Assembly (NCBI GenBank): GCA_019651595.1 | Contig: BOYQ01000004.1 | Location: 40,534 to 104,533 of the forward strand | From: Candidatus Poseidoniales archaeon | Lineage (GTDB): Archaea; Thermoplasmatota; Poseidoniia; Poseidoniales; Poseidoniaceae | Length of the DNA: 64,000 nucleotides | Reading direction: 5' to 3' | Shown here: one piece after another, positions 14,352 through 59,619 of the stretch | Numbering within the stretch: the first letter of the stretch is position 1 | How the letters are laid out: every line of letters begins with the position of its first letter | The notes under the pieces: model-generated | Database searches by the model: none | What the model was told of the DNA's origin: nothing | What the model saw: the letters and a program-made list of their open reading frames with translations, nothing else | Program-made: the position numbers and the translations under genes

Positions 14352-15236
14352 CTACCCGTATTTGTTCGGATGCGGCTGGCTAGGAAGAAGCGACATCACG
14401 AACAGAATCAACCAGCCGACGTACGGAACGAAAAACGCAAGGAGCACCCACCAGCCCGACGCGCCGATGTCATGCAAACGGCGTATCTGCTGGCTGAGGA
14501 GCGGAATCAACAGGACGAGCATGACCGTGATCAGGCCCATCGAACCCATCAGCCACCCCTCGTTGGAGCCCGCATCGGCGGCGGCAAAAATAAACACGGA
14601 AAAGAAGCCAAGCGTGAAAGCGAGCATGAGATAATACAGAAGGGCACCCCACCAAAATTCGCTCCGCTGGCACCTTCCCTCTCCGTTCCAACTCCTGATG
14701 GTTCGCCGCAGAGCGGTCATCGGGTCAACCGCTTGAAGATTCAGATACGGATTCAACCGGCCATCCACCACTTGATTGGGGTTGGCTCGTCCGAAACCGA
14801 CGAATTGCTGGTTTGTTGGGGCTCGGCTGGAGGCTTGTTGAACGTGACCCACCACCACCTGGGTTGGTTTCGCAACGACCTGGGTTGCTGGTCGAGGTTG
14901 AGCCATCGTGGTTTGGGGTTGTTTCAAACCCGGAGGGGCGTTGGGGATGGGGGCGCCCACAAATTCCCCGATGTGCTCGGAACAGTACGGCTTTTCTCCG
15001 GGCCCTCGTTCCGCTCGAAAGAAGGATTCGCAATTTCTGCAGAAAAGGGTCTCGCATCCCTCCTTGAAACAGTAGAGCCCCGGGTTGACTTTGGCGTCAA
15101 TGGGTGTTTTGCACATGCTGCAGTGCTCGGTTTGACTCCCCGAATTGATGACGATGTCGCCCGTCGTGGGACCGATGGCGTTATGCCCGACCTGCACCGA
15201 ATCGGTGAGGTTGACCCCTGGCGCCTTTGGTTCCAT
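14352..15236 (-). CDS. Cys-rich zinc-finger N-domain fused to DUF805-type membrane domain
   Basis: N-terminus HCSMCKTPIDAKVNPGLYCFKEGCETLFCRNCESFF..YCSEH. C-terminus RSEFWWGALLYYLMLAFTLGFF...QQIRRLHDIGASGWWVLLAFFVPYVGWLILFVM (DUF805/YhaH-like signature RRLHD.G.SGWW). Confidence 0.7.
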   Translation of the reverse strand: MEPKAPGVNLTDSVQVGHNAIGPTTGDIVINSGSQTEHCSMCKTPIDAKVNPGLYCFKEGCETLFCRNCESFFRAERGPGEKPYCSEHIGEFVGAPIPNAPPGLKQPQTTMAQPRPATQVVAKPTQVVVGHVQQASSRAPTNQQFVGFGRANPNQVVDGRLNPYLNLQAVDPMTALRRTIRSWNGEGRCQRSEFWWGALLYYLMLAFTLGFFSVFIFAAADAGSNEGWLMGSMGLITVMLVLLIPLLSQQIRRLHDIGASGWWVLLAFFVPYVGWLILFVMSLLPSQPHPNKYG

Positions 15237-15259: not shown

Positions 15260-16483
15260 TTAATCGTCTTTGTACGCGTCTTTTTGACCGGCCACATCCG
15301 CCTTGCGGAGTTCGGCCAACTGTTTGAGCGCCTCCAACTTCACGGCGGGATCGTCCGATGATGCAGCGATGTCTTCGAGAACGGCAATCGTGGATTGCGA
15401 ACCCTTGGCGTGTTGCTCAAGTCGCTGTTGTTCTTGCTCGTTTTGGAGCTGCATGCGGTCTCGCTTGCGGGCTTGGACCTGCTCAAACATTTCCATGGCC
15501 CTGTTCATCTTCTGCTCTTCAGCATCTTGTGCGACGGAGGCGAGGGCTTTCTGCCGCTCGGCTTCGAGCTTGGCCAGTTCAACGTCCGTTTGGGCGTTTT
15601 TGATGGCCTCATCACGGGAAGCGGCCGATTGTTGGTCGCGCAGTTCCTGTTGCTGGCGCCACTGTTGCAGGTTGTACTCACCTGCCCCTTTGAGTCGGTC
15701 AAGTTCCAATTTGAGTTCAGCCGCTTCCTTGGCCTGAACGCCGACGAGTTCCATACGGGCGTTCACCTCGTGTTTCCGCTGTTCGGTCTTGATGATATGG
15801 TCGAGCTCAACGGCTTGCTTGTCCGATTCAATGTCCTTGGAGAGTTGCAAACGCTCCAAGTCGTGCTGATGCTGAAGTTGTTGCTCAGCAGCGGTGCTGC
15901 TCCACGTGATGAAGCCGCTCCGGTAGGCCAAACCGTGCTCGTCCAAGGTTGCGCGCAACGCTGTTTTGACGGCGTACATGACGTCCTCATTGGCCTGAAC
16001 CGTGCGCATCGTCGTGGCGTCCATGCCCCGGAGGTGCTGCAGTGCAGCAGCACTTGCAGCGGGGGAGAGCAGCGCAGCGATGTCCTTCGCCTGAACGGTC
16101 ATGGTGCCCTTGGCAGGAAAGGAGATGAGGCGGGGGGCGGTTTCCCGAGTGACCTCGAGTTTCATCGTGATCAGGCAGTTGATTTCGTCACCGCTGGCGG
16201 CCGTTCCTCGGACCTGAACGAGGACGGCGTGGGGTCCGGTGAAAGCGAACATGAACGAACGAACAGGGTTGGTTTTGCCAAACACTTTGCTGAACAGGCC
16301 AATTTGCGGACTGACCTCCATGTGGGTTTGAGAGACAGACCCGACGATCTTGCCGTTTTCCAACACCACGCACACCTCATTGGGCTTGAGCGTGACCTCG
16401 GCTTGCCGGGGGACATCGGCGTCGTTCATGTAGTGGGCGATCACGGTTGGGTTGGTTCTCCATCTGAAATGCATGTTGTTCAC
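15260..16483 (-). CDS. SPFH/Band-7-like domain protein with long Q/E/K-rich coiled-coil C-terminus
   Basis: The N-terminal ~190 aa resemble the Band_7_1/YdjI-type SPFH domain (..KPNEVCVVLENGKIVG..AFTGPHAVLVQVRGTAASGDEINCLITMKLEV..). The remainder is heptad-like (ELKLELDRLK, LAKLEAERQKAL, QLQNEQEQQRLEQ). The GTG start at 16483 overlaps the upstream stop (GTGA); ATG 16474 is an alternative. Confidence 0.55.
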   Translation of the reverse strand: MNNMHFRWRTNPTVIAHYMNDADVPRQAEVTLKPNEVCVVLENGKIVGSVSQTHMEVSPQIGLFSKVFGKTNPVRSFMFAFTGPHAVLVQVRGTAASGDEINCLITMKLEVTRETAPRLISFPAKGTMTVQAKDIAALLSPAASAAALQHLRGMDATTMRTVQANEDVMYAVKTALRATLDEHGLAYRSGFITWSSTAAEQQLQHQHDLERLQLSKDIESDKQAVELDHIIKTEQRKHEVNARMELVGVQAKEAAELKLELDRLKGAGEYNLQQWRQQQELRDQQSAASRDEAIKNAQTDVELAKLEAERQKALASVAQDAEEQKMNRAMEMFEQVQARKRDRMQLQNEQEQQRLEQHAKGSQSTIAVLEDIAASSDDPAVKLEALKQLAELRKADVAGQKDAYKDD

Positions 16484-17007
16484 CTCTTGGTCAGTCCATC
16501 GATGTACATGTTCCTCTCCAGGTACATGTTTCGAGTTCGCGTCAGTTTTTGATGCCAGTCAGCGATTCGGGCGTTCACGGCATCATGGTTCAAATCGCTC
16601 ATTCCATCGGCCAACTCGTTGGCCATGCGGGTCGTTTCCACAAGGGCTTGCAGCACCTCACTGTCGTGGTTGACCAACTTGCGAACGGCTTTGGCCTTGA
16701 GTTTTCCAATACCCGTGTGCTGAGAAACGTGATTGCTGGTGATGGAGAATTGGGCCTCGTTGCGAAGGATGTTAATGGATTCAATCATGCTCTCGAGGCT
16801 GCTTCGACCACTTCGGTTGCCGACGGCATGGACATCGCCCTGCAGTTTTTCCGCATGACGAGCAAGCATCTCGCACCGTCGTTGAATTTCAGCACGGACA
16901 GCTTCGTCCGATTTCATGAACCGTCCTTTCTCGTAGCCGTCGTAGGCAGAAATCAACGCACGGACGCCTTGGACGGCGGCGGCCAAGGTGGAGGTGCTCA
17001 CGTCCAT
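16480..17007 (-). CDS. Helical protein of unknown function, translationally coupled to the SPFH-like gene
   Basis: 175-aa ORF with ATG start. Predicted all-helical. 4-nt overlap with the downstream gene. Confidence 0.5.
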   Translation of the reverse strand: MDVSTSTLAAAVQGVRALISAYDGYEKGRFMKSDEAVRAEIQRRCEMLARHAEKLQGDVHAVGNRSGRSSLESMIESINILRNEAQFSITSNHVSQHTGIGKLKAKAVRKLVNHDSEVLQALVETTRMANELADGMSDLNHDAVNARIADWHQKLTRTRNMYLERNMYIDGLTKR

Positions 17008-17038: not shown

Positions 17039-17106
17039 CCCTTGTTGTTCCTGCGTTCATTTGCTCAAACCGAAGATTTGGTTAGCCCTTGGTGCGTGAG
17101 ACCGTC

Positions 17107-18189
17107 ATGGCCGACCCGTTGTTCAGCCCCGACGGCAAGTGGATGTGGTCAGGGAGTGAATGGATACCCGCCCCACCCGGCCACGGGTCGCAGCAACTCA
17201 ACATGCAAGACTCGGTCATCGGTGGCGACGTGGTCCACAACACGACCATTCACAACGACCCAACGGCCGTCACCGAAGCGGTGATTTCCGCACTGCAGCA
17301 GATGGGCATGCTTGGACAGGTGGTTGAGCAAGCCCCTCCAGCGGCGCCCGAGGTTGTGTTGCCGCCGCAACTTTCGCCTGGTGACAGGGTGTTCGTAAAC
17401 TGGAAGAATTACGGGCATTTCTACGCCGGTCAGGTGGCCCAACGTCATGCAGACGGCACCTACCTCATCCATTTTGATGACGGCGACGTCGAGGACCGCG
17501 TCAACATGGACCGTATCAAACCGCTTGACGAGGCCTCCGAAGAGGTCCAAGCCTACATTGAACACGACAACGAAGCGGAACGCGACCTCATCGAAGCCTT
17601 CCAGGTCTTCGACACCAACAACACGGGAACGATTCCTGCTCGCGAGTACCTGCGGATCCTGACCGAAATTGGCGACGACCCCGTTCCCGTTGAAGATGTG
17701 CTGAATGAATTCGTCGACCTCGGCATCGAACTGGACTCCGAGATCGACTACCGAGCCCTGGCGAAGTTCATGGTGGCCTCCGAACTTGGTGACCCACACC
17801 CTCAAGCGAAACAAGAAGTGGTTGTTCACGACGCTGCCATCGACGGTGATCGACTCTCCGCCTACGCCTACGACCACCCAAAACTCGGCGAAGGGCGCCT
17901 CAATTCATCCACTATCGTCTCCGTAACCTACGACGAGCGGGCCACCGCCCGTGTTGAAACACAAAACACCGTCTTCATCGTCGGCCCAACCGGTTGGAGT
18001 GAACGCCCTGCAGACCATCCCTTCAACAACCCATTTACCGTTGGCCAGCGGGTGAAGATTGAATGGGAGGGAACATGGTGGGACGGCCAAATCTTGGAGG
18101 TCAACGGCGACTCGTACTTCATCACGTACGAGAACTACAGCTCATCGTGGAACGAATGGGTTGACGCGTCCCGCCTCAAGTCCGAGTGA
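17107..18189 (+). CDS. Tudor/Agenet-like - EF-hand pair - Tudor/Agenet-like domain protein
   Basis: GDRVFVNWKNYGHFYAGQVAQRHADGTYLIHFDDGDVEDRVNMDRIKPL (Tudor-like). LIEAFQVFDTNNTGTIPAREYLRILTEIG...IDYRALAKFM (calmodulin-like EF-hand pair; loop DTNNTGTIPARE). GQRVKIEWEGTWWDGQILEVNGDSYFITYENYSSSWNEWVDASRLK (Tudor/Agenet-like). ATG at 17107; the track start 17089 is TTG. Confidence 0.7.
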   Translation: MADPLFSPDGKWMWSGSEWIPAPPGHGSQQLNMQDSVIGGDVVHNTTIHNDPTAVTEAVISALQQMGMLGQVVEQAPPAAPEVVLPPQLSPGDRVFVNWKNYGHFYAGQVAQRHADGTYLIHFDDGDVEDRVNMDRIKPLDEASEEVQAYIEHDNEAERDLIEAFQVFDTNNTGTIPAREYLRILTEIGDDPVPVEDVLNEFVDLGIELDSEIDYRALAKFMVASELGDPHPQAKQEVVVHDAAIDGDRLSAYAYDHPKLGEGRLNSSTIVSVTYDERATARVETQNTVFIVGPTGWSERPADHPFNNPFTVGQRVKIEWEGTWWDGQILEVNGDSYFITYENYSSSWNEWVDASRLKSE

Positions 18190-18194
18190 GCGTG

Positions 18195-18270
18195 TGGCGG
18201 ACGTACCAGGATTCGAACCCGGGTTTTCGGCTTAGAAGGCCAAAGTGATATCCAACTACACTATACGTCC
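18195..18270 (-). tRNA. tRNA-Arg (anticodon TCT), CCA encoded
   Basis: GGACGTATAGTGTAGTTGGATATCACTTTGGCCTTCTAAGCCGAAAACCCGGGTTCGAATCCTGGTACGTCCGCCA. Anticodon stem TTGGC/GCCGA, loop CTTCTAA. Confidence 0.9.
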
Positions 18271-18312
18271 AGTCTTTGGGCTGGGCCGACCGTACTTGAA
18301 GGGTGTGCCAAC

Positions 18313-18975
18313 TCACCAAGGCCGTGCACACTTCAGGCAGCGGGTGGGGCGACGCACGGTGGTGCGCTTCCATGAAAAACCGCACAGCTTGCAGGTCCAC
18401 TCCTGCACCTTCAGGGTGTCCAACACGGCCGACCTCATCCTCTGCAGAAGCGGTGAATCTTTCATGGCGGGGGACGGTGCCACCTGATTGGTCAGCCGGT
18501 CGTGAAGTTCGGTGTGAAGCATCAGTCCTGCGGCATGGAAGAGTTCGTGGGCAAAGGTGTGCCGATACAGCGCTTCATCCTCGAGCAAGGCAGGATGCAA
18601 GCCGATGGTTACTTCGCCCGGATCGAGGCGCAGTCGTCGTCGTCGAATCAGCTCGTTGCTGCCCTCCTCAAACCGGGTCATGCCGAGACGGTCGTCGTTC
18701 ACATCAAGCCATTCCACCGTGAACCGGTCGGCGATCCACGGAAGGAAGACCGCCTCAACGTGGCCCGAGAGCGCCGCCAACACGTCGTCAACCACGTCTT
18801 CGGGAACGCTGGGCGGGTCCTCGGGCAGAGGGGTGTCGGCCAGTGGCCCGCGCTTTGCTTCGCCCATGAACCTCGCAATCGCCACCCCTTCAAGAGGCTT
18901 CATTTGGTAGAAAGTGGGATGGGAGTTCGTCAGAGGCTGCATCAGCGGAGAGGAGAAGTCGGGAATCCTTATCAT
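18313..18975 (-). CDS. SprT-like zinc metallopeptidase with C-terminal zinc ribbon
   Basis: HExxH motif in YRHTFAHELFHAAGLMLH. C-terminal WTCKLCGFSWKRTTVRRPTRCLKCARPW (CxxC...CxxC). Confidence 0.65.
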   Translation of the reverse strand: MIRIPDFSSPLMQPLTNSHPTFYQMKPLEGVAIARFMGEAKRGPLADTPLPEDPPSVPEDVVDDVLAALSGHVEAVFLPWIADRFTVEWLDVNDDRLGMTRFEEGSNELIRRRRLRLDPGEVTIGLHPALLEDEALYRHTFAHELFHAAGLMLHTELHDRLTNQVAPSPAMKDSPLLQRMRSAVLDTLKVQEWTCKLCGFSWKRTTVRRPTRCLKCARPW

Positions 18976-19012
18976 GGCGAGGCCGGTCGGCGAGTTGCGA
19001 AAGCACCCACAT

Positions 19013-19088
19013 GGGCGTGTAGATCAGTTGGAAGATCGCTACCTTGGCATGGTAGAGGCCCCGAGTTCAAATCTCGGCACGTCCACCA
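19013..19088 (+). tRNA. tRNA-Ala (anticodon GGC), CCA encoded
   Basis: GGGCGTGTAGATCAGTTGGAAGATCGCTACCTTGGCATGGTAGAGGCCCCGAGTTCAAATCTCGGCACGTCCACCA. The G3:U70 alanine identity pair is present. Anticodon loop TTGGCAT. Confidence 0.9.
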
Positions 19089-19244: not shown

Positions 19245-19673
19245 ATGAAGGCAGAGAGGTCGTTGGAAATCATGCGAGTGGTCTGGCTCAAGCACGACCT
19301 TCGCCTGGCCGACCACGCCCCGTTGATGGAAGCCGTTGCTCACGGGGACGACCTCCTGCTCCTCTACGTCGTCGAACCCGAACGCCTTGACCAGCCGGAC
19401 GAATCCATGCTCCATGTGGCATGGGACTTGGCCAACGCTCGCACGCTGCTCGCACGTGTGGAGGCGCTGGGCGGCACCATGCACATCCGAACGGGGCGCC
19501 CTGAACAGGTGCTTCAAGACCTGCAGGACACGTCGGCGATCGTCAGCCTCCACAGTCATGAGGAAACGGGCCTCCAGTGGTCATGGGAACGCACAAACGG
19601 GTCATGGCGTGGTGTGAGGCCAACGATACGGTCTGGCACGAACACCCCTGGAACGGCGTCGTGCGACGCCTGA
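19245..19673 (+). CDS. Cryptochrome/photolyase family protein, N-terminal fragment (frameshifted gene 19245-20819)
   Basis: MRVVWLKHDLRLADHAPLMEAV...LLLLYVVEP is a typical photolyase alpha/beta-domain start. The frame is lost near 19590; the sequence continues as KRVMAWCEANDTVWHEHPWNGVVR in ORF 19577..19813. Confidence 0.75.
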   Translation: MKAERSLEIMRVVWLKHDLRLADHAPLMEAVAHGDDLLLLYVVEPERLDQPDESMLHVAWDLANARTLLARVEALGGTMHIRTGRPEQVLQDLQDTSAIVSLHSHEETGLQWSWERTNGSWRGVRPTIRSGTNTPGTASCDA

Positions 19674-19769
19674 CCGACCGGGACCGTTGGAACAGCATCC
19701 GAAACGGCGAATGGTCGACCGGTTCTCGAGGCCCCTGCCCGGCTACCGAGCCATTCCAATCTCACCTGC

Positions 19770-20819
19770 GTGGACGAAACCAAGGCGTGTTCCCGTGCTA
19801 CAACGACCTGTGAAGACACCGCTGGAAGCGGAGAACCTTGGGCTCACGCTTGGCTTGATTCCTTCCTCTCGACTCGATTTGGCGACTACCTGCCCACCAT
19901 CTCCAACCCCGCCACCTCGCCCGAGGGTTCCTCTAGGTTGTCCGCTTACCTTTCCAGCGGCGTACTGAGCGTCAGGCAAGTCAAGCACGCCATCACGACA
20001 GCACGGCAATCACCGCCCGAGGGGGTTGATGTGGCGGTGTTCCGCAAGAACGTTGACGCGTTTGCATCCCGCGTGTCTTGGCGATGCCACTTCGTTCAGC
20101 GCCTCGAGATGGAAACGAGCATGAACGAACGGTCCATCAATCCGGAACTGGACGAGGCCCTGGATCGGGTGGACGACGAACACCGCTTCCTTGCTTGGGC
20201 AGAAGGTCGGACGGGTTGGCCGTTCTTTGACGCCTGCATGCGCTCGCTTCGAGCCACCGGATGGATCAATTTTCGCATGCGCGCCATGATGCAGTCCGTT
20301 GCCGCCTACACGCTGTGGTTGCCCTGGCAGCGCTCCGGCCAACACCTTGCCAAACTCTTCATCGATTACGAACCGGGCATTCACTGGTCCCAAATCCACA
20401 TGCAATCGGGCATCACGGGCATCAATTCCGTGCGCGCTTATTCCATTCTCAAGCAGTCGCTCGACCACGACATGAACGGGGACTTCATTCGCAAGTGGGT
20501 GCCCGAACTGGCGATGGTGCCCACGCCGTACATCCACGAACCGTGGACCATGTCCGACGAGATGCAAGCCACCACCGGCGTCGTCATCGGGACAACGTAT
20601 CCCGCACCCATCGTTGACGAGACCGAGGCCCGAAACCAAGGCATCAAGGCCACGCATGCCGCTCGCCGAACCGACGAGGTCAAGGCTCGCTCAGCACAAG
20701 TGTACGCCATGCACGGGAGCCGAGCACGAAGGTTTCAACGGCGAGGAAGAGCCGTGCAGCGACGGGCCGAAAAACCGTCAGTCAACCCTCAAACAACACT
20801 GCTGGATTTTGGCAACTAA
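19770..20819 (+). CDS. Cryptochrome/photolyase family protein, FAD-binding C-terminal fragment
   Basis: SRLSAYLSSGVLSVRQV, GWINFRMRAMMQSVAAYTLWLPW, DYEPGIHWSQIHMQSGITGINSVRAYSILKQSLDHDMNGDFIRKWVPEL (FAD_binding_7-type motifs). Confidence 0.8.
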   Translation: MDETKACSRATTTCEDTAGSGEPWAHAWLDSFLSTRFGDYLPTISNPATSPEGSSRLSAYLSSGVLSVRQVKHAITTARQSPPEGVDVAVFRKNVDAFASRVSWRCHFVQRLEMETSMNERSINPELDEALDRVDDEHRFLAWAEGRTGWPFFDACMRSLRATGWINFRMRAMMQSVAAYTLWLPWQRSGQHLAKLFIDYEPGIHWSQIHMQSGITGINSVRAYSILKQSLDHDMNGDFIRKWVPELAMVPTPYIHEPWTMSDEMQATTGVVIGTTYPAPIVDETEARNQGIKATHAARRTDEVKARSAQVYAMHGSRARRFQRRGRAVQRRAEKPSVNPQTTLLDFGN

Positions 20820-22612
20820 TCCCTTCGTTGGCGTAAAAACAGCAAGGCAAACGCCAGCATCCAAAGCATGACCGCGGGAGATGCGACCGCTGAGGGAATC
20901 GCTGAGACCTCGGAAAGTTGTCCGCCTTGGCCGCCGCCCGGGCCGCCTTCACAACCGGGAGGAGGAGGCCCGATGCCAGGGCCCCATGTTTCTCCGAATC
21001 CCGAACAATCTGCGCCGCCATTGCCCTCGTCAAGGAAGGTTTCACCGTGGTAGCACAGCAAAAAGTACGGGAAGCCCATGTCGCCTTCACCGTTCGTCAT
21101 GGTGGAATGGTAGTGATAGATGCCATCGGGGAATTCGGGCGTGGGTCCGAAATGGCCGTTGCACACATCGAGGTGGCCGAGCCCCTGGAGGTAGATGTAG
21201 TCGTCAATGCCATTGTAGCCCGTCTCACCGTCCTTGAGTTTGTACGAACTCTTCATTTCGACGATGTTCATCTGGTCGTCGTAGCCCCACAGACCGTAGA
21301 TGGGGTAGCCGTCCATGGCCACGCCGATCACGGCAGAATGTGAACCGTTGGCCGTGTTTTCAGCCACTGCGGCAGGCGTGCTGATGTTGTAGTCCAACAT
21401 GTCCTCGCCCGCATCCGGGTGCCAGTGAAGGCAGTTTGCATCGGCGTGGTAGTGGAAGGTCCCGCCCTGACCGTTGTGGGCATGGCACACACCGAGTTCA
21501 ATCGGCTGTCGGTCTTCCTCGTAGACACCGTGGTGACTGGCGACCGCATCCCCTCCCGGCCCGTCTTCAGGACCGTAGAACGGGACGCCATTGATGGCGA
21601 TCGCCACTTCGCCGAGGGCCGCAGCACACTCGTAATCCCCGTTGGCCTCAGGACAGTTGGTGGCGTCGTGCCCGCCGGTTGTGTCGTTGACGGGTGAGCG
21701 TGGGACGGTCCACTCGTAATTCTGAGCGCGTGTGCAATCGTTCGCTTGCGTGCAGGCGAGCGTGGATTCAAAATCGTGGTCGGGCAGGCCGTTGGTCGTG
21801 ATGGTGATGTGCGTCTCGTTCATGGTGATGCTGACCGAACACTCGTGCGTTTCAACCGCCGCCGTGGACAGGTCGTCCACCTGAGTGATGTTTTGTCCGG
21901 CCTGACAGCGGAACACGTCAAGCCAGAACTGACCCATGTCCGATGGGTCGTAGGTCGGTTGGGTGGGCTCCGTTGGACCGTCCGTGCCGTTGTCCGTTTC
22001 GTTTCCAGCGCTGTCATCCGTGCCGTTTTCGGGGTTGTTGCCGGTTTCGTTTCCAGTACCATCGCCCGTTTCGTTGTCCGTACCGTCGTCGGTTTGATGG
22101 CTTTCATTTTCAGAAGTTGTTCGGTTGATTTCAATGAACGTGGTGTCGGAGGTGGTCCCCTCCACGTCGTGAGCGGCCGTGATGTTCATGTAAACCTGTT
22201 CAGCACTGCTTTGCACGGTGAGCGACCAGGCACCGTCCGTGTTGGGCTGCGTGGAGATGACGACGTCCTCGTCAAGACTCAACCTGACCGTGATCTCATC
22301 GGGGTGTAGGTGATTGACATCGCCAAGGATGGCGATGGCGGAACCGTCGTCGATCACGTTTGAGACCGACAACACGGGAGCGGGATGCGTGTGGAACATG
22401 GCATGCGGGTCGAGCGGCACACAATCGTACCCGTCCGGAGCCGAGGCATTGAGCACCTTTTGCGTACCGACAAGGCAGGTGCTTTCCTCAACGACCTCCT
22501 CCTCCGTGTCCTCCTCGTTCACCGAAACGGCCTCGTCCTCTGGGAGGAGCAACACCAGCAAACTGGCACCGAGAAGCATCACCAAAACCAGCCAAAGTGC
22601 GTCACGACCCAT
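20816..22612 (-). CDS. Secreted YHYH-domain protein with sequon-rich acidic linker and C-terminal hydrophobic anchor
   Basis: Signal-like MGRDALWLVLVMLLGASLLVLLL. FHYHADANCLHWHP and GIYHYHSTMTNGEGDMGFPYFLLCYHG (YHYH motifs). Linker DGTDNETGDGTGNETGNNPENGTDDSAGNETDNGT. Tail PAVMLWMLAFALLFLRQRRD. ATG at 22612; the track start is TTG. Confidence 0.7.
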   Translation of the reverse strand: MGRDALWLVLVMLLGASLLVLLLPEDEAVSVNEEDTEEEVVEESTCLVGTQKVLNASAPDGYDCVPLDPHAMFHTHPAPVLSVSNVIDDGSAIAILGDVNHLHPDEITVRLSLDEDVVISTQPNTDGAWSLTVQSSAEQVYMNITAAHDVEGTTSDTTFIEINRTTSENESHQTDDGTDNETGDGTGNETGNNPENGTDDSAGNETDNGTDGPTEPTQPTYDPSDMGQFWLDVFRCQAGQNITQVDDLSTAAVETHECSVSITMNETHITITTNGLPDHDFESTLACTQANDCTRAQNYEWTVPRSPVNDTTGGHDATNCPEANGDYECAAALGEVAIAINGVPFYGPEDGPGGDAVASHHGVYEEDRQPIELGVCHAHNGQGGTFHYHADANCLHWHPDAGEDMLDYNISTPAAVAENTANGSHSAVIGVAMDGYPIYGLWGYDDQMNIVEMKSSYKLKDGETGYNGIDDYIYLQGLGHLDVCNGHFGPTPEFPDGIYHYHSTMTNGEGDMGFPYFLLCYHGETFLDEGNGGADCSGFGETWGPGIGPPPPGCEGGPGGGQGGQLSEVSAIPSAVASPAVMLWMLAFALLFLRQRRD

Positions 22613-22718
22613 GGTGCTCAAGGACGCACAGACGCTTATGGTGGTTTGGCATGGATGGCTTCGCTTTGTTTGAAGCGGAAATCAAACCTTCAAATGCAAC
22701 AGCCTCGGATGGTGTGTT

Positions 22719-23351: not shown

Positions 23352-24982
23352 ATGCCCAACAGCATCCCCAAGCCGCCCACCCCCGTCAACGAACCCGTCC
23401 TCGGCTACTTGCCGGGCAGCAAGGAGCGAGCCGAGCTTGAGGCGGAACTCAAGCGGCAGTCAAGCGAGGTCCTCGAAATTCCCTGCATCATCAACGGCGA
23501 GGAAGTGTTCACCGGCGATGTGGTCGAGCAGGTCATGCCGCACAACCACGGCCACGTCATCGCCCGAGTGCACATGGCAGGGGAAAAGGAAGTCAACGCC
23601 GCCATCGACGCCGCCCTCGGCGCCCACGAGATGTGGTCCACGATGGAATGGCAGGCGCGTGCCGCTATTTTCCTCAAGGCCAGCGAGTTGCTGAAAGGAC
23701 CTCGCCGAGCCGAAATCAACGCCTCCACCATGCTCAACCAGTCAAAGACCTGCCACCAGGCCGAGATTGACTCGGCCTGCGAACTGATCGATTTCTGGCG
23801 ATTCAATTCCGACTATGCTCGTCAAATCTACGAAGACCTGCAGCCACCCATCTCTCCCTCGTCCATGTGGAACTCCAGCGAAGTGCGACCTCTGAGGGCT
23901 TCATCTTCTCGGTCACACCCTTCAACTTCTCAAGCATCGCCGCCAACCTTCCGTCGTGCGCCGCCATCATGGGCAACGTCGGCGTGTGGAAACCGTCCCG
24001 AAATTCCTACGTTTCGAACTACCGATTGATGCGTCTGATGATGGACGCAGGTCTGCCCGGTGGCGTCATCAACTTCGTGCCCGGACGGGCCGCTGTTGTG
24101 GGCGACATTTGCTTGGCGCACCGTGAGTTAGCAGGTATTCACTTTACCGGTTCAACCCGAGTTTTCCGTCAGATGTGGCGAGACGTGGCCAACAACCTCG
24201 AGAACCTGAAATCCTACCCTCGCATCGTCGGTGAAACGGGCGGCAAGGACTTCATCGTGGCCCACCCCGACTGCGACCGCCAAGCCCTGCTCGTGGCCAT
24301 GCTCCGCGGTGGATTTGAGTTCCAAGGCCAGAAGTGCAGCGCTGCAAGCCGCGTCTACGTGCCACGCTCGGTGTGGGACGCCATCAAGGACGACTACGTC
24401 GCCGAGGTCAACAAGATCACCGTGGGCGACGTGGCGGACTTCAGCAACTTCCTCGGCGCCGTCATCGACAAGAAGGCCTTTGACAGCATCACGGGCTACA
24501 TCGACCGCGCTGCTGCCAACCCTGATTGTGAGATCATCACCGGCGGCACCTACGACGACAGCACGGGCTACTTCATTCAACCCACGACCATCGTGTGCAA
24601 TGACCCGCGCAGCGAGACCATGGCCGAGGAAATCTTCGGTCCGGTACTCTCGGTTCACGTCTACGCCGACGAGGACTTTGAAGCCACGTTGGAACTGTGC
24701 GACACGACTTCGGAGTACGCCCTCACGGGGTCCATCTTTGCCACCGACCGACGCCACATCGAGACCGCGGTCAAAGCGCTCCGCTACAGCGCTGGGAACT
24801 TCTACATCAACGACAAGCCCACGGGCGCCGTGGTCGGTCAGCAACCCTTCGGCGGGGCTCGAGGAAGCGGAACGAACGACAAAGCCGGCAGCCCGCTCAA
24901 CTTGCTTCGGTGGGTCAGCCCCCGTTCCATCAAGGAAACCTTTGCACCGCCCCACGACTGGACGTACGGGTTCCTCGACTGA
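23352..24982 (+). CDS. 1-pyrroline-5-carboxylate dehydrogenase (aldehyde dehydrogenase family), one frameshift near 23894
   Basis: ORFs 23352..24029 and 23867..24982 are the two halves. They join as ..SSMWNSSEVRPL|EGFIFSVTPFNFSSIAANL.. if one G is restored in CTG(G)AGGGC. Downstream: FTGSTRVFRQMW, VGETGGKDF, FEFQGQKCSAASR. Confidence 0.85.
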
Positions 24983-39562: not shown

Positions 39563-40648
39563 GTGTCATCCATATCTTCATGGCAAGGTCGAGGGTGGGG
39601 GGAACGGAGGGAGAGACGCTTGCCGGTTTTGGTCAATGAAAAAATCGATGCGCTGCTCGAAACAACCTCACGGTCGTTTTATCCGACGCTCAAGTACCTC
39701 CCCAAAAAAACACGAGGGCAAATCGGCTTGCTCTACCTCCTCGCCCGTGTGGCCGACACCATCGCCGATTCCAAAACAGGCGATACGGACATGCTGGTGA
39801 ACCACCTCCAGAACTACAACGAGGTGGTCCAAGGGCGTTCGGAAAACCTGCCTGATTTCTCTGCGCTGGCCGATCTCCAAACCAATGAACACGAGGCTGA
39901 ACTTCTCCGAAACGTACCGTTGGTGATCGAGGGCCTCGACACGTACGACAGCGATGACCAAGCCCGCATGCTCGAATGCCTTGAGATCATCGTCGGCGGT
40001 CAACTTCTGGACCTTGAGCGGTTCGGCCCCGCCAACGAAGGCGGTACCGTTTCTGCCCTCCCAACCGATGACGAACTGGACGACTACACCTTTCGCGTGG
40101 CGGGTTGCGTGGGTGTGTTTTGGACCAAAATGTCCCTGGCGCACCTCATGAAACTCTCCCCCGAAAACGAAGCCCTGTTCATGGAGCGAGGCATCCGGTT
40201 CGGTAAAGCATTGCAGATGATCAACATCCTTCGAGACATCCCCGAAGACCTGCGGTTTGGACGATGCTACATACCGGAGGCTGCGCTGAAGGAGATCGGC
40301 TTGAAACCCGAGGATTTGCTGGACGACGGGAACCTCGCCACCTTCCGCCCCCTCTACGACCGGTACCTCGACCTGACCAACGAACACCTCGAGGCCGCAA
40401 CGGAATACATCCGGATGATTCCCGAAACACAATTTCGCCTCAAAGCATCCTGCATGCTCCCCGTGTTGGTTGGCCAGCGCACGGTCACCCTGCTTCGAGA
40501 AGGCAACATTCTGAACTCCGGCGAGCGCATCAAAGTGACCCGGGATGAGATGAAAACCTATGCTCGCAAATTGTTGCGAGCCTTGCTGATTCCCGGTGGT
40601 GTTCGTCGACTCCTTGAAAAGAACAAAGATACGTCTTCGAATCTATAG
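39563..40648 (+). CDS. Squalene/phytoene synthase family protein (paralog 1)
   Basis: LLETTSRSFYPTLKYLPKKTRGQIGLLYLLARVADTIADS...YTFRVAGCVGVFW...ALQMINILRDIPEDLRFGRCYIP. The start is uncertain (GTG at 39563; no early ATG). Confidence 0.75.
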   Translation: MSSISSWQGRGWGERRERRLPVLVNEKIDALLETTSRSFYPTLKYLPKKTRGQIGLLYLLARVADTIADSKTGDTDMLVNHLQNYNEVVQGRSENLPDFSALADLQTNEHEAELLRNVPLVIEGLDTYDSDDQARMLECLEIIVGGQLLDLERFGPANEGGTVSALPTDDELDDYTFRVAGCVGVFWTKMSLAHLMKLSPENEALFMERGIRFGKALQMINILRDIPEDLRFGRCYIPEAALKEIGLKPEDLLDDGNLATFRPLYDRYLDLTNEHLEAATEYIRMIPETQFRLKASCMLPVLVGQRTVTLLREGNILNSGERIKVTRDEMKTYARKLLRALLIPGGVRRLLEKNKDTSSNL

Positions 40649-40758
40649 AATTATTTTTCCTTGTAGACATCTACTTACTTCAGTTCAAATCACGGGTTTG
40701 TATCGCACTCCCAAGGCGAGGGCTCTTAAACAAAGAAGGCGAGGGCCTACCGGTTAGG

Positions 40759-42058
40759 ATGCTGGAACGCCGCAAACCGCTCGACTTGCTGTTTCCTCTC
40801 AAAGGGAACGCGGCAAGCCGCACCGGCGAGGATGATGTTCGACCACCAACCACGCTTGATCGGCTTCGAGCCGGTGTCACCCTCGCACGTGATGCGGTCA
40901 AAGCCGTGAGCGTCACCGCCATGGAAGCCCTCCGCGAGGGTGCATCCTTCATCGGCATCGTCGGCGAAACCAACGAGCTCGTGGACCCGTTCGCCCACCT
41001 CGACGCACCCATCTGGTCCGAACAACCTCCCGCTGAACTTCACAAGCTTGCCTACCGCTACTGCGAAGAACTCACCATGCGCGAAGCCGGCAACTTCTAT
41101 CACTCGTTCAAGTACCTGCCCGAAGAGCAGCGGTTGGCCATGTGCGCCATCTACGCCTTCTGCCGCCGTGCCGATGACATCGCCGACGGTGATTGGGCAG
41201 ACCGCTTCCCCGGCGGTAAAGGCATGTTGGACCCCGAGGCCATGGAGTACCGAAACCAACTCGAATCGCTTCAGGACCAAGGCACCATCCTGGACGAGGA
41301 TGCTTACCTGAACAAGATCACGCAGCTGCTTTTTCTTCCGAAAGAAGCTCTCCACCTGCTACGGCGACGTTCACTCAACCGATCCCGTTTTCCTGGCCCT
41401 CAAGGACACCGTCCAGCGGTACAACATCCCACGCGACGTGTTTGACGACCTGATCTCTGGCATGGAGGACGACCTCTACAACAACCGGTACCGCACGTTT
41501 GACGAACTCTACGTGTACTGCTACCGTGTCGCCTCGGTGGTCGGGCTGATGTGCATCGAAGTCTACGGCTACGACAACCCCATGGCCCGAAAGTACGCCG
41601 AATCTTGGGGCATTTTCATGCAACTCACCAATGTCCTGCGAGACGTCGGCGAGGACATTCAGCGCGACCGCGTCTACCTCCCGTTGGATGAACTTGAACG
41701 CAACGGCATGACCGAAGAGGAACTCGGTGGAACCATCGTCCTCAACAAGCACTGGGAACCCTACTGCCGTCAATACGCCGCGCGTGCCCGAACCTACCTT
41801 GAAGAAGCCCGTGCACTGCTGCCACTCTTGCCTCGTCGAACCCGGTACTCACCGGCCGCCATGATCGCCTTCTACGACAAGATTTTGCGCCAGATTGAGA
41901 AACAGCAAGGCGACGTCTTCACCAAGCGCGTGAAGTTGAACAAGATCCAGAAGATCTCACTCGCCGCCGCCGTCTACCTACGCCACCGTTTCCTGCCTGC
42001 GTTCCTCGACCCCGTTTGGGCCGGCTTGGCCCGCGTGGGTTTGCTGCCCAGCGTTTGA
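40759..42058 (+). CDS. crtB: Phytoene synthase, one frameshift in T-run at 41330-41334
   Basis: YCEELTMREAGNFYHSFKYLPEEQRLAMCAIYAFCRRADDIADG. After ..NKITQLL the frame shifts to FFRKKLSTCYGDVHSTDPVFLALKDTVQRYNIPRDVFDDLISGMEDDL.., then YCYRVASVVGLMC...FMQLTNVLRDVGEDIQRDRVYLPLDEL. Confidence 0.85.
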
Positions 42059-59569: not shown

Positions 59570-59619
59570 GGACGCTACAGGTGGGCCACACCTTTTGAAG
59601 GCTCACTCTTGGGTCGTGC

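What the first reader, a model, noticed from the sequence alone, without database searches (positions are those of the whole stretch)
17107..18189. Eukaryote-like domain mix: Tudor/Agenet-like - EF-hand pair - Tudor/Agenet-like in one archaeal protein
Two segments have the sequence logic of Tudor/Agenet 'royal family' barrels: GDRVFVNWKNYGHFYAGQVAQRHADGTYLIHFDDGDVEDRVNMDRIKPL and GQRVKIEWEGTWWDGQILEVNGDSYFITYENYSSSWNEWVDASRLK. They flank a calmodulin-like EF-hand pair, LIEAFQVFDTNNTGTIPAREYLRILTEIGDD..VEDVLNEFVD..IDYRALAKFM. Its first loop, DTNNTGTIPARE, fits the 12-residue Ca-binding consensus; the second loop is degenerate. The N-terminus has a Trp-rich motif, SPDGKWMWSGSEWIPAPP. Such reader-like barrels combined with Ca-sensor modules are typical of eukaryotic chromatin/RNA proteins. 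I do not know of this combination in archaea.
Basis: partly seen in the sequence, partly recalled or inferred. Interest (0 to 1): 0.65.

Follow-up and report, generated by a model that had tools for sequence, protein, structure and literature searches.

The report
Tudor–EF-hand reader-like protein of Poseidoniales
A marine archaeon (Marine Group II, Poseidoniales) encodes a conserved cytoplasmic protein in which two chromatin-reader-type barrels, both with intact aromatic cages, flank a calmodulin-like EF-hand pair; it is a real and apparently undescribed family that suggests these archaea read methylated proteins, though the function is untested.

Summary
ORF 17107-18189 (+) encodes a 360-aa acidic protein with no signal peptide or TM segment. 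It is under strong purifying selection (dN/dS 0.08).

**Domains**
- Barrel A (aa 88-142) is a 53BP1/Crb2/KDM4A-type Tudor.
- aa 145-227 is a calmodulin-C-lobe-like EF-hand pair (E = 1e-10).
- Barrel B (aa 310-358) is an Eaf3/MRG15-type chromo-barrel (Tudor-knot/Agenet).

**Ligand sites**
- The cage positions that could be aligned are invariant or conservatively aromatic across the 82-119 relatives that carry each barrel.
- EF loop 1 is only near-canonical (Pro at position 9).
- About a quarter of members lack the Ca-ligand Glu12.

**Distribution and affinities**
- The full architecture occurs in 142 GTDB species genomes. Every listed locus is Poseidoniales or an unclassified marine euryarchaeote; none is bacterial or from another named archaeal order.
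- Neighbouring genes are not conserved.
- Barrel A's nearest named relatives are all eukaryotic: giant multi-Tudor proteins, some with EF-hands, mostly from stramenopiles.
- Barrel B's nearest relatives are bacterial secreted "agenet" proteins.

**Reading**
The best interpretation is a cytoplasmic, multivalent methyl-lysine/cation reader-adaptor. Ca2+ modulation is plausible in most members. The family looks like a mosaic acquired before the MGIIa/MGIIb split. No paper describing it was found. Function is inferred, not shown.

The parts
17107..18189 (+). Complete gene (360 codons plus TGA stop) for the Tudor-EF-hand-chromo-barrel protein
   Evidence: ORF list. 396 homologous clusters. dN/dS 0.08 against L007. 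pI 4.35, with no hydrophobic stretch compatible with a signal peptide or TM segment.
17107..17322 (+). Conserved orphan N-terminal module (aa 1-72). It contains the Trp-rich beta-hairpin SPDGKWMWSGSEWIPAPP (aa 7-24), a predicted-disordered MQDSVIGGDVVHNTT segment, and a helix at aa 52-65
   Evidence: 28 invariant columns in 14 diverse members. AF2 secondary structure and pLDDT. No significant PDB or Pfam match. Found only in the Poseidoniales family.
17368..17532 (+). Barrel A (aa 88-142): 53BP1/Crb2/KDM4A-type Tudor domain. Candidate cage residues are W99, Y106, F123, D125 and D127
   Evidence: Pfam Tudor_3 28.2 bits (cut-off 25.8). Family profile against PDB: KDM4A 2.4e-6, PHF20L1 1.3e-5, 53BP1 6e-5. 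hhalign against 53BP1 Tudor-1: probability 95%, mapping 4 of 5 cage residues. Cage positions invariant or conservative in 119 members. pLDDT 84-89.
17539..17787 (+). Long entering helix plus calmodulin-C-lobe-like EF-hand pair (aa 145-227). Loop 1 is aa 169-180 (nt 17611-17646) and is near-canonical. Loop 2 is aa 206-217 and is degenerate
   Evidence: phmmer against PDB calmodulins: E = 1.3e-10 over aa 153-224. Pfam EF-hand_7 24.1 and EF-hand_6 22.9 bits, both below their cut-offs, although relatives pass them. Ligand statistics and the PS00018 test. Helix-loop-helix pattern in the AF2 model.
17809..18024 (+). Orphan all-beta middle domain (aa 235-306), strongly conserved (HPKLGEG, DERATARVET, GPTGW, HPF motifs)
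   Evidence: 27 invariant columns. Stand-alone AF2 model pLDDT 82.8, seven strands. No PDB sequence hit at E <= 10. No significant Foldseek hit; the best is the DNMT1 RFTS domain at E = 0.24.
18034..18180 (+). Barrel B (aa 310-358): Eaf3/MRG15-type chromo-barrel (Pfam Tudor-knot/Agenet). Candidate cage residues are W324/W325, Y341, Y344 and W348
   Evidence: Pfam Agenet 26.4 and Tudor-knot 20.9 bits. Family profile against PDB: Eaf3 9e-9, FXR2 9e-8, MRG701 and MRG15 about 1e-7 to 1e-6. hhalign against MRG15: probability 97%. Foldseek single-domain matches: MRG2 TM 0.87 with rmsd 1.2 A, and Tbtudor TM 0.82. Aromatic positions conserved in all 82 members that have the domain.

Best explanation
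The gene encodes a cytoplasmic, multivalent 'reader/adaptor' protein that is specific to, and conserved across, Marine Group II archaea (Poseidoniales).

Shown here:
- It contains a 53BP1/Crb2-type Tudor barrel and an Eaf3/MRG15-type chromo-barrel.
- In each barrel, the aligned ligand-cage positions are kept under strong selection.
- The two barrels are separated by a calmodulin-C-lobe-like EF-hand pair and an orphan beta domain, and preceded by an orphan N-terminal module.

Inferred:
- Each barrel uses its aromatic/acidic cage to bind a methylated lysine or arginine, or a similar cationic side chain, on partner proteins. Barrel A has two invariant Asp residues and so probably prefers lower methylation states. 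Barrel B has four aromatic positions and so probably prefers higher ones.
- The EF-hand lobe either switches the relative geometry or availability of the barrels in response to Ca2+, or acts as a Ca-independent peptide-binding lobe in the members that lack Glu12.
- The N-terminal and middle domains supply further lineage-specific contacts.
- The protein is an evolutionary mosaic assembled before the MGIIa/MGIIb split. Barrel A, and perhaps the EF-hand, came from a eukaryote. Barrel B came from the bacterial secreted chromo-like domain pool.
For: Domain identity:
- Pfam hits (relatives).
- PDB sequence and profile hits.
- hhalign to 53BP1 and MRG15.
- AF2 model with pLDDT 84-91 over the barrels.
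- Foldseek hits to SETDB1 triple Tudor, AGDP3 Agenet, FMRP, MRG2, MRG15 and Tbtudor.

Cage conservation:
- In 119 of 119 members: W99, D125, D127.
- Y106 is Y or F; F123 is F or Y.
- In all 82 members with barrel B: W324, Y341 and W348 are invariant; position 325 is W, Y or F; position 344 is F, Y or H.

Constraint and distribution:
- dN/dS is 0.08.
- 142 GTDB species genomes hold a relative; every listed locus is Poseidoniales or an unclassified marine euryarchaeote, and both families (MGIIa and MGIIb) are represented.
- The invariant core is N-terminal module + barrel A + EF-hand pair, even in truncated clades.
- Cytoplasmic location: no signal peptide or TM segment. The bacterial barrel-B relatives, by contrast, carry them.

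Mosaic origin:
- Reciprocal profile scores are clear-cut. The barrel-A profile gives 36-51 bits on seven named eukaryotic proteins and 7-25 bits on the bacterial-type proteins (two named bacterial, three unnamed with a signal peptide or TM segment). The barrel-B profile gives 50-77 bits on the bacterial-type proteins and 8 bits or less on the eukaryotic ones.
- EF-hands co-occur with barrel-A-type repeats in several of the eukaryotic proteins.
Against: - No ligand, partner or methyltransferase 'writer' has been identified.
- Gene neighbourhood is not conserved, so there is no operon clue. No neighbour recurs in more than about 14 of 84 loci, and no methyltransferase or chromatin gene lies in the 64-kb window.
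- One 53BP1 cage tyrosine (Y1523) is replaced by Asp. The first MRG15 cage position could not be aligned.
- Ca2+ binding is uncertain: Pro at loop position 9; Glu12 replaced in 31 of 119 members, mostly by Lys; loop 2 degenerate.
- 37 of 119 members lack barrel B entirely, so bivalent reading cannot be essential to the family.
- The direction of transfer rests on best-hit asymmetry and on the 9 relatives that carry an organism name, of 30 cluster look-ups. It does not rest on a phylogeny, and most of the 2,670 representative hits have no taxonomy.
- I could not inspect the model coordinates, so cage geometry is inferred from alignment only.
Confidence: 0.5

Rival explanations
1. The protein is a nucleic-acid-binding (RNA or DNA) factor. 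The barrels act like the MOF/MSL3 chromo-barrels or OB/SH3-like nucleic-acid binders, and the aromatic residues stack on bases rather than caging methyl-ammonium groups.
For: The Pfam family hit by barrel B is described as 'RNA binding activity-knot of a chromodomain'. Some Tudor and chromo domains bind DNA (PMC5906684). Weak, non-significant Foldseek resemblances of the middle domain are to RPA and HIN OB folds and to the DNMT1 RFTS domain.
Against: The whole protein and every domain are acidic: pI 4.05-5.1, with 62 D+E against 23 K+R, although the proteome itself looks acidic. The conserved positions coincide with the peptide-cage residues of 53BP1 and MRG15. The invariant Asp pair in barrel A would repel phosphate.
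Confidence: 0.17
2. The protein is a cell-envelope or extracellular peptide-binding protein, like the bacterial secreted chromo-like domain proteins. The EF-hand would be loaded by seawater Ca2+ and serve a structural role.
For: Barrel B is most similar to bacterial agenet proteins that carry signal peptides or TM segments. PMC5906684 reports that bacterial chromo-like domains are consistently secreted and sometimes combined with EF-hands.
Against: There is no signal peptide, lipobox or TM segment. The maximum 19-residue Kyte-Doolittle mean is 1.05, located in an amphipathic helix, and the N-terminus MADPLFSPDGKW is hydrophilic and invariant. There are no conserved cysteines. Barrel A and the EF-hand are closest to intracellular eukaryotic proteins.
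Confidence: 0.07
3. The aromatic cages bind free small quaternary amines that are abundant around phytoplankton (glycine betaine, choline, TMAO, carnitine). The protein would then be a metabolite and Ca2+ sensor rather than a reader of modified proteins.
For: Aromatic-cage chemistry is shared between methyl-lysine readers and betaine/choline-binding proteins (my general knowledge, not tested here). The family is restricted to surface-ocean heterotrophs.
Against: No known Tudor or chromo-barrel domain works this way. There is no linkage to transporters or catabolic genes. Multivalency (2-4 barrels per protein) fits polymeric or peptide ligands better.
Confidence: 0.06
4. The barrels are generic SH3/KOW-like folds with no Tudor affinity, or the ORF is an artefact or a piece of eukaryotic contamination.
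For: Individual Pfam scores for the window protein sit close to their thresholds. Pol II elongation complexes containing Spt5, which carries KOW repeats, appear among the multi-domain Foldseek hits.
Against: Family profiles hit only Tudor, chromo-barrel and MBT readers in the PDB. Relatives exceed the Pfam thresholds clearly. The gene lies between archaeal genes and tRNAs and is present in 142 archaeal species genomes. dN/dS is 0.08.
Confidence: 0.02

Closest known systems
53BP1 / Crb2 tandem Tudor and KDM4A (JMJD2A) hybrid Tudor domains (eukaryotic H4K20me / H3K4me readers)
   Same: Barrel A aligns over 37 columns with 53BP1 Tudor-1 (hhalign probability 95%). It retains W1495, Y1502, F1519 and D1521 as W99, Y106, F123 and D125. 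Pfam Tudor_3 scores above its threshold. The KDM4A profile hit is 2.4e-6. Most family members have two adjacent barrels, like a tandem Tudor, and Pfam DUF4537 spans both.
   Different: The fifth cage residue, Y1523, is an invariant Asp. The window protein has a single A-type barrel because its clade lost the upstream one. The context is archaeal and cytoplasmic, with no BRCT or JmjC partner domains. No histone ligand is known.
Eaf3 / MRG15 / MRG2 chromo-barrel (Pfam Tudor-knot) and FMRP/FXR Agenet-type Tudor
   Same: Barrel B shares the YFI.Y.G(W/F/Y)..SWDEWV..(S/D)R motif (Eaf3 E = 9e-9; MRG15 hhalign probability 97%). Its predicted fold superposes on MRG2 at TM 0.87 and rmsd 1.2 A. Cage residues Y46, W49 and W53 correspond to Y341, Y/F344 and W348.
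   Different: There is no MRG domain and no NuA4/Rpd3S context. The first cage position could not be aligned. Barrel B is closer in sequence to the bacterial versions than to any eukaryotic one.
Bacterial secreted chromo-like ('agenet domain-containing') proteins described by Kaur, Iyer, Subramanian and Aravind 2018 (PMC5906684)
   Same: Barrel B scores 50-77 bits on these proteins, for example Polyangiaceae HLV19905.1 and Aridibaculum WP_207494290.1. Tandem barrels, conserved cage aromatics and occasional EF-hand partners are reported for that class, as is rare occurrence in euryarchaea.
   Different: The bacterial proteins carry signal peptides or TM segments; the Poseidoniales protein does not. 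It also adds a eukaryote-type Tudor, a calmodulin-like lobe and two orphan domains, and it is a single-copy, order-wide conserved gene rather than a sporadic one.
Giant multi-Tudor repeat proteins of stramenopiles and other protists (e.g. Pythium oligandrum TMW64474.1, Lagenidium giganteum DAZ98959.1 'EF-hand domain-containing protein', Ascophyllum, Phaeothamnion, Choristocarpus, Rigifila)
   Same: Their repeat unit, G(D/E).V.A.(Y/W)KG.G..Y.GKI.....DGT(F/Y)DI.YDDGD.E..V, is the closest non-Poseidoniales relative of barrel A: up to 44% identity and 36-51 bits per single domain. Several also contain EF-hands in the same polypeptide.
   Different: These proteins have 13-35 tandem repeats in 1,000-7,600 residues and different partner domains (PUB, ankyrin). 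None of those examined, the best 150 of the 2,670 representative hits, has the N-terminal module, the middle domain or barrel B. Their function is also unknown.
Calmodulin C-terminal lobe / CTER-type EF-hand pairs
   Same: aa 153-224 align end to end with calmodulin residues 78-148 (E = 1e-10), including the EAFxVFD entering helix.
   Different: There is only one lobe (two EF-hands). Loop 1 has Thr at position 5 and Pro at position 9. Loop 2 lacks the Asp-1, Gly-6 and Glu-12 ligands. A quarter of family members lack Glu12 in loop 1.

Membership tests
Tudor domain, 53BP1/Crb2/KDM4A type (Pfam clan CL0049) - barrel A | Significant profile match to curated Tudor families | tested here: met
   Tudor_3 28.2 bits against a cut-off of 25.8. 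The family profile hits KDM4A at 2.4e-6 and 53BP1 at 6e-5 in the PDB. hhalign probability 95%.
Tudor domain, 53BP1/Crb2/KDM4A type (Pfam clan CL0049) - barrel A | Five-stranded SH3-like beta-barrel | tested here: met
   The AF2 model has strands 94-98, 105-113, 119-123, 128-132 and 137-139 with pLDDT 84-89. Top Foldseek hits are Tudor and Agenet proteins.
Tudor domain, 53BP1/Crb2/KDM4A type (Pfam clan CL0049) - barrel A | Aromatic cage residues at the ligand pocket | tested here: met
   4 of 5 53BP1 cage positions are retained (W, Y, F, D); the fifth, Tyr, is an invariant Asp. The positions are invariant or conservative in 119 members. Geometry was not inspected.
Tudor domain, 53BP1/Crb2/KDM4A type (Pfam clan CL0049) - barrel A | Binds methyl-lysine or methyl-arginine peptides | not testable with these tools
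   Requires ITC, peptide arrays or NMR.
Chromo-barrel / Tudor-knot / Agenet - barrel B | Significant profile match | tested here: met
   Tudor-knot 20.9 bits against 20.8. Agenet 26.4 against 27, just below the cut-off. Relatives reach 42 bits. The family profile hits Eaf3 at 9e-9. hhalign probability 97% to MRG15.
Chromo-barrel / Tudor-knot / Agenet - barrel B | Barrel fold superposable on solved chromo-barrels | tested here: met
   MRG2 4pll: TM(target) 0.87, rmsd 1.2 A over 55 columns. MRG15 2f5k: rmsd 1.7 A.
Chromo-barrel / Tudor-knot / Agenet - barrel B | Four-residue aromatic cage (MRG15 Y26, Y46, W49, W53) | tested here: inconclusive
   Three positions map to Y341, Y/F344 and W348 and are conserved. 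The Y26 equivalent, probably W324 or W325, lies outside the aligned segment.
EF-hand pair (calmodulin-like) | Sequence homology to EF-hand pairs and a helix-loop-helix x2 architecture | tested here: met
   Calmodulin E = 1.3e-10 over aa 153-224. The AF2 model shows four helices with short beta bridges at 175-177 and 212-214. The Pfam EF-hand families score below their cut-offs for this protein (24.1 against 30; 22.9 against 25) but above them in relatives.
EF-hand pair (calmodulin-like) | Canonical 12-residue Ca2+-binding loop (PROSITE PS00018) | tested here: not met
   Loop 1 fails at position 9 (Pro). Only 21 of 119 members match fully, and Glu12 is absent in 31 of 119. Loop 2 lacks ligands at positions 1, 6 and 12.
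EF-hand pair (calmodulin-like) | Binds Ca2+ | not testable with these tools
   Requires ITC, Tb3+ luminescence or a 45Ca overlay.
Bacterial secreted chromo-like domain proteins (PMC5906684) | Signal peptide / extracytoplasmic location | tested here: not met
   No hydrophobic N-terminus or TM segment. The bacterial relatives have them.
Bacterial secreted chromo-like domain proteins (PMC5906684) | Chromo-like barrel of the bacterial sequence type | tested here: met
   True for barrel B only: 50-77 bits on the bacterial-type proteins, against 8 bits or less on the eukaryotic barrel-A-type repeats.
Calmodulin proper | Four EF-hands in two lobes with no other domains | tested here: not met
   There is a single lobe embedded in a five-module protein.

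The most novel reading that the evidence does not exclude
Poseidoniales, a non-Asgard and globally abundant archaeal order, run a eukaryote-style protein-methylation 'reader' axis. In this reading, a Tudor (plus EF-hand) cassette captured from a marine protist before the MGIIa/MGIIb split was fused to a bacterial chromo-barrel. The resulting protein now reads methyl marks in a Ca2+-dependent way on lineage-specific partners. One candidate partner is the acidic four-histone-fold protein, which is likewise exclusive to Poseidoniales (PMC13260811).
Probability: 0.12. Interest if true: 0.85.

Novelty: new variant of a known kind. Interest (0 to 1): 0.6.

Why it matters
Methyl-lysine and methyl-arginine readers of the Royal family are treated as a hallmark of eukaryotic chromatin and RNA biology. 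Prokaryotic versions were known mainly as sporadic, secreted bacterial proteins.

This case differs in four ways:
- The protein is cytoplasmic.
- It is under strong purifying selection.
- It is a single-copy gene in every stretch examined, and relatives occur in 142 species genomes of one of the most abundant archaeal orders in the surface ocean.
- It combines two cage-intact readers of different ancestry with a calmodulin-like lobe.

If the cages are functional, this gives a tractable, recombinantly testable entry point into post-translational methyl-mark reading, and possibly Ca2+ signalling, in an uncultured archaeal lineage. It would also be a probable example of eukaryote-to-archaeon domain transfer.

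If the cages turn out to bind something else, the family still defines two orphan domains and a lineage marker for Poseidoniales.

Tried and rejected
1. **Conserved gene neighbourhood.** I looked up three long contigs and ran all-against-all clustering of ORFs in 84 loci. No partner gene recurs in more than about 14 loci. The apparent 20-locus cluster is an antisense ORF inside the gene itself. No operon clue.
2. **Other copies of any module.** None in the 64-kb window or in L001-L006.
3. **Identity of the middle domain.** No PDB sequence hit at E <= 10. A dedicated AF2 model gave no significant Foldseek hit. It remains an orphan.
4. **Identity of the N-terminal module.** Only chance-level 'SPDGK' beta-propeller-blade similarities.
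5. **The ~105-aa insert carried by some members.** The homologue search returned only Poseidoniales fragments, and there is no Pfam hit.
6. **P0192 as a possible sister lineage outside MGII.** It turned out to be a divergent Poseidoniales clade with the architecture N-terminal module, barrel A', barrel A, EF-hand.
7. **NCBIfam.** No curated model for the protein or for its immediate neighbours, apart from sub-threshold photolyase/cryptochrome matches on the two photolyase fragments.
8. **Literature.** No paper links Tudor domains to Marine Group II or Poseidoniales, lysine methylation to MGII, or Tudor plus EF-hand to oomycetes. The text-readable supplement of PMC5906684 lists no archaeal entries.
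9. **Contiguous Tudor-EF junction in eukaryotes.** I tested whether the archaeal EF-hand is specifically related to the EF-hands of the eukaryotic giants. The matches are weak (E about 3e-4), and the EF-hands are usually hundreds of residues from the Tudor repeats. Co-transfer of a Tudor-EF cassette is therefore not demonstrated.
10. **Acidic pI as evidence against nucleic-acid binding.** This argument is weakened because many genuine genes in the window are equally acidic.
Full report
**1. The observation**

It runs from ATG 17107 to the TGA ending at 18189 on the + strand and encodes 360 aa. An in-frame TTG at 17089 is not used by homologues, which all begin MxDP. Every quoted peptide segment is present.

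The window is archaeal:
- GC content is about 59%.
- It encodes a thermosome, a class-I aminotransferase, a subtilase and a class-I Trp/Tyr-type tRNA synthetase.
- The best homologue is 99% identical and labelled 'Candidatus Thermoplasmatota archaeon'.
- The closest genome loci are named Poseidonia or Poseidoniaceae, that is Marine Group IIa.

The gene is bounded upstream by a divergent 175-aa gene of unknown function. Downstream, a tRNA-Arg(TCT) on the opposite strand starts 5 nt after the stop codon.

**2. What the protein is made of**

An AlphaFold2 model built on a 21-sequence alignment has mean pLDDT 74, rising to 84-91 over the barrels. Combined with the sequence searches, it gives five modules.

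*(i) N-terminal module, aa 1-72.*
- It contains a Trp-rich beta-hairpin (SPDGKWMWSGSEWIPAPP), a low-confidence MQDSVIGGDVVHNTT stretch, and a helix.
- It is very strongly conserved: 28 invariant columns in 14 diverse members.
- It has no relative in the PDB or Pfam.

*(ii) Barrel A, aa 88-142.*
- Pfam Tudor_3 (Crb2) scores 28.2 bits, above its cut-off of 25.8. Weaker hits go to Tudor_5, BAHCC1-like Tudor, DUF4537 and 53-BP1_Tudor.
- A family profile finds KDM4A hybrid Tudor (2.4e-6), PHF20L1, 53BP1 (6e-5) and PHF20 among solved structures.

*(iii) EF-hand pair, aa 145-227.*
- A long helix leads into the pair, which aligns end to end with the calmodulin C-lobe at E = 1.3e-10.

*(iv) Middle domain, aa 235-306.*
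- It has 27 invariant columns.
- It has no PDB sequence hit. A dedicated model (pLDDT 83) gives no significant fold match; the best is the DNMT1 RFTS domain at E = 0.24.

*(v) Barrel B, aa 310-358.*
- Pfam Agenet scores 26.4 bits (cut-off 27) and Tudor-knot 20.9 bits (cut-off 20.8).
- The family profile hits the Eaf3 chromo-barrel at 9e-9, then FXR2/FMRP, MRG701 and MRG15.

Foldseek with the whole model returns SETDB1 triple Tudor, AGDP3 Agenet repeats and FMRP tandem Tudor. Clean single-domain superpositions come from MRG2 (TM 0.87, rmsd 1.2 A), Tbtudor (TM 0.82, rmsd 1.4 A) and MRG15. The barrels are therefore specifically Royal-family readers, not generic SH3 or KOW folds.

**3. Ligand-site residues**

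*Barrel A.* Profile-sequence alignment against 53BP1 Tudor-1 gives hhalign probability 95%. The alignment maps:

| 53BP1 cage residue | Window protein |
|---|---|
| W1495 | W99 |
| Y1502 | Y106 |
| F1519 | F123 |
| D1521 | D125 |
| Y1523 | D127 (invariant Asp) |

*Barrel B.* Alignment against MRG15 (probability 97%) maps Y46 to Y341, W49 to Y344 and W53 to W348. The Y26 equivalent, probably W324 or W325, falls outside the aligned block.

*Conservation.* In a 119-member family alignment:
- W99, D125, D127 and E129 are invariant.
- Y106 is Y or F. F123 is F or Y.
- In the 82 members that possess barrel B: W320, W324, Y341, W348 and W351 are invariant; position 325 is W, Y or F; position 344 is F, Y or H.

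I infer, but have not shown, that both barrels have functional cages. The two Asp residues in barrel A would favour lower methylation states or a protonated amine. The four aromatic positions in barrel B would favour higher methylation states.

**4. The EF-hand**

Loop 1 (DTNNTGTIPARE) has oxygen ligands at positions 1, 3, 5 and 12 and Gly at position 6. It fails PROSITE PS00018 at position 9 (Pro).
- Only 21 of 119 members match the pattern in full.
- Glu12 is Lys, Gln, Ala or Met in 31 of 119 members.

Loop 2 has Gly at position 1, Ser at position 6 and Ala, Glu or Ser at position 12, so it is degenerate.

Ca2+ binding by loop 1 is plausible for the window protein. It is not a universal property of the family. 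In part of the family the lobe may work as a Ca-independent interaction module, as in myosin essential light chains (my own knowledge, not tested here).

**5. Distribution and architecture**

*How widespread it is.*
- The word-indexed search found 396 clusters at 90% identity.
- The scan of GTDB species representatives found 142 genomes with a relative. Every one of the 80 listed is Poseidoniales, covering both Poseidoniaceae and Thalassarchaeaceae, or an unclassified 'Methanobacteriota/Euryarchaeota' marine MAG.
- dN/dS against the closest genome orthologue is 0.08.

*How the architecture varies around a fixed core.*
- Most members carry an extra barrel before barrel A. The window's clade has lost it.
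- Some members have a second barrel B or a ~105-aa insert.
- A 313-aa clade, 37 of 119 sequences, lacks barrel B.
- A 288-aa clade consists only of the N-terminal module, two A-type barrels and the EF-hand pair.
- The invariant core is therefore N-terminal module + barrel A + EF-hand pair.

*Context.*
- The gene is single-copy in every stretch examined.
- It has no conserved neighbours.
- There is no signal peptide or TM segment, and the pI is 4.35.

**6. Relatives outside the family**

The exhaustive search of 1.84 billion representatives gave 2,670 hits at E <= 1e-3.

*Barrel A.* Apart from Poseidoniales proteins and fragments, the top hits are giant proteins of 1,000-7,600 aa with 13-35 tandem copies of a barrel-A-like unit.
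- An example unit is Pythium oligandrum GDVVEANYKGKGRFYRGKIIRKHVDGTFDIEYDDGDVEKRV, with up to 44% identity to the query.
- Every such hit that carries an organism name is eukaryotic: Pythium oligandrum, P. insidiosum, Lagenidium giganteum, Phaeothamnion, Ascophyllum, Choristocarpus and Rigifila.
- These repeats score massively on Pfam Tudor_5, Agenet, Tudor_3 and TUDOR.
- Several of these proteins also contain EF-hands. One is annotated 'EF-hand domain-containing protein' and another 'Ca2+-binding EF-hand superfamily protein'. Weak matches to the archaeal EF profile usually lie far from the Tudor repeats.
- Among the best 150 hits, which are the only ones returned, none has the N-terminal module, the middle domain or barrel B.

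*Barrel B.* It has a different set of nearest relatives: short proteins with 2-4 tandem copies and signal peptides or TM segments. The named ones are bacterial 'agenet domain-containing proteins' from Polyangiaceae and from Aridibaculum (Bacteroidota).

*Cross-scoring the two profiles is clean.*

| Profile | Named eukaryotic proteins | Bacterial-type proteins |
|---|---|---|
| Barrel A | 36-51 bits | 7-25 bits |
| Barrel B | 8 bits or less | 50-77 bits |

[quoted passage not shown] 2018 (PMC5906684). That paper also mentions 'rare cases in euryarchaea' and EF-hand among the partner domains.

**7. Most likely mechanism**

*Shown:* a constrained, cytoplasmic, order-specific protein with two reader-type barrels whose aligned cage positions are conserved, plus a calmodulin-like lobe.

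*Inferred (overall confidence about 0.5):*
- It is a multivalent adaptor that docks onto methylated Lys or Arg, or another cationic side chain, on partner proteins through the two cages.
- The EF-hand lobe modulates or bridges these interactions. It would be Ca2+-responsive where Glu12 is kept.
- The orphan N-terminal and middle domains provide lineage-specific contacts.

*A speculative partner.* A 2026 survey reports that the only histone-fold gene of Poseidoniales is an acidic four-histone-fold protein that is exclusive to this order (PMC13260811). This is the same phyletic pattern as the present family. It is only a co-distribution, not evidence of interaction.

*Evolution (inferred).* The protein looks like a mosaic assembled before the MGIIa/MGIIb split. 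Barrel A would come from a eukaryote and barrel B from the bacterial chromo-like pool. Tudor domains are pan-eukaryotic and barrel-A-type repeats occur in distant eukaryotes (stramenopiles and Rigifila), so eukaryote-to-archaeon is the parsimonious direction. No phylogeny was computed, and most hits lack taxonomy.

**8. Rivals**

- Nucleic-acid binding (0.17). Argued against by the match of conserved positions to peptide-cage residues and by the acidic surfaces, although the proteome itself is acidic.
- An envelope or extracellular role like the bacterial relatives (0.07). Argued against by the absence of any export signal.
- Small quaternary-amine sensing (0.06). There is no precedent and no linked transport or catabolic genes.
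- Generic fold, artefact or contamination (0.02). Effectively refuted.

**9. Novelty and score**

The family sits in databases as 'hypothetical protein' or, through automatic naming, 'Tudor-knot domain-containing protein'. NCBIfam has no model for it.

I found no paper describing it. The nearest statements are:
- the passing remark on euryarchaeal chromo-like domains in PMC5906684;
- a note that Poseidoniales-specific gene modules include calcium-binding domains (PMC9258230).

I classify it as a new variant of a known kind, namely prokaryotic chromo-like/Tudor-like proteins. The new features are the cytoplasmic location, conservation across the order, a eukaryote-type Tudor fused to a calmodulin-like lobe and a bacterial-type chromo-barrel, and two orphan domains.

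Interest is 0.6. A specialist in archaeal chromatin or eukaryogenesis would be moderately surprised, and the hypothesis is directly testable with recombinant protein. Against that, function, ligand and direction of transfer are all still inferred.

Noticed in passing
window 19245-20819 (+): A photolyase/cryptochrome gene is broken into at least three overlapping reading frames: 19245-19673 (DNA_photolyase N-terminal domain), 19577-19813, and 19770-20819 (FAD_binding_7). That implies two frameshifts within about 200 bp. It is either a pseudogene or an assembly indel error.
   Followed up: partly
window 23352-24982 (+): An aldehyde dehydrogenase gene is likewise split into two overlapping ORFs. 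23352-24029 matches Aldedh profile positions 9-115, and 23969-24982 matches positions 153-448. This is a second frameshifted gene in the window, which hints at sequencing or assembly indels rather than biology.
   Followed up: partly
window 39791-41445 (+): Two adjacent ORFs both hit squalene/phytoene synthase, but in inverted order of the profile. The first covers profile positions 65-261. The second covers only positions 6-41, in the middle of a 228-aa ORF. This could be two paralogues with one degenerate, or a rearrangement.
   Followed up: no
window 15260-17007 (-): Two genes of unknown function lie upstream and divergent from the target. One is a 175-aa protein that sits next to the target in about 11 related loci. 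The other is a 407-aa protein with a beta-rich N-terminus and a long Gln/Glu-rich C-terminal region that looks like a coiled coil. Neither has a Pfam or NCBIfam match.
   Followed up: partly
window 14352-15236 (-): A DUF805 membrane protein (95 bits) has an N-terminal Cys-rich, zinc-ribbon-like segment. That segment is preceded by a 'DSVQVG...GDIVINSG' stretch, which loosely resembles the MQDSVIGGDVV motif of the target's N-terminal module. Both may belong to a short motif shared by Poseidoniales proteins.
   Followed up: no
window 18195-19088: tRNA-Arg(TCT) lies on the - strand, starting only 5 nt after the target's stop codon. Next comes a 220-aa protein with weak SprT-like and treble-clef zinc-finger matches (18313-18975, - strand), then tRNA-Ala(GGC) on the + strand.
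   Followed up: no
family members P0016-P0055 (313 aa), P0299 (288 aa), P0112/P0113 (~490 aa), P0008/P0031/P0087/P0125 (466-540 aa): The family shows clade-specific domain gain and loss. One abundant clade ends right after the middle domain and so lacks barrel B. Another ends after the EF-hand pair and has two A-type barrels. Others duplicate barrel B, or carry a ~105-aa Cys/Trp-containing insert with no relatives outside Poseidoniales.
   Followed up: partly
window 20816-22621 (-): A 601-aa YHYH-domain protein (103 bits) has an N-terminal hydrophobic segment and a long acidic, low-complexity region rich in Thr, Asn, Gly and Glu (GTDNETGDGTGNETGNNPENGTDDSAGNETDNGTDG). It is probably a surface protein.
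   Followed up: no
L003/L005 loci, upstream of the orthologous gene: In some MGII genomes the gene lies next to a giant protein of about 2,140-2,170 aa with a weak InhA-like MAM domain hit. Downstream is a conserved block of a 370-aa unknown protein, Aminotran_5 and Peptidase_S8. This arrangement is not shared with the window.
   Followed up: no
window 57719-61362 (-): Two adjacent large genes (616 and 580 aa) both match the PD-(D/E)XK nuclease superfamily (PDDEXK_1). They may be an AddAB/RecB-like nuclease pair.
   Followed up: no
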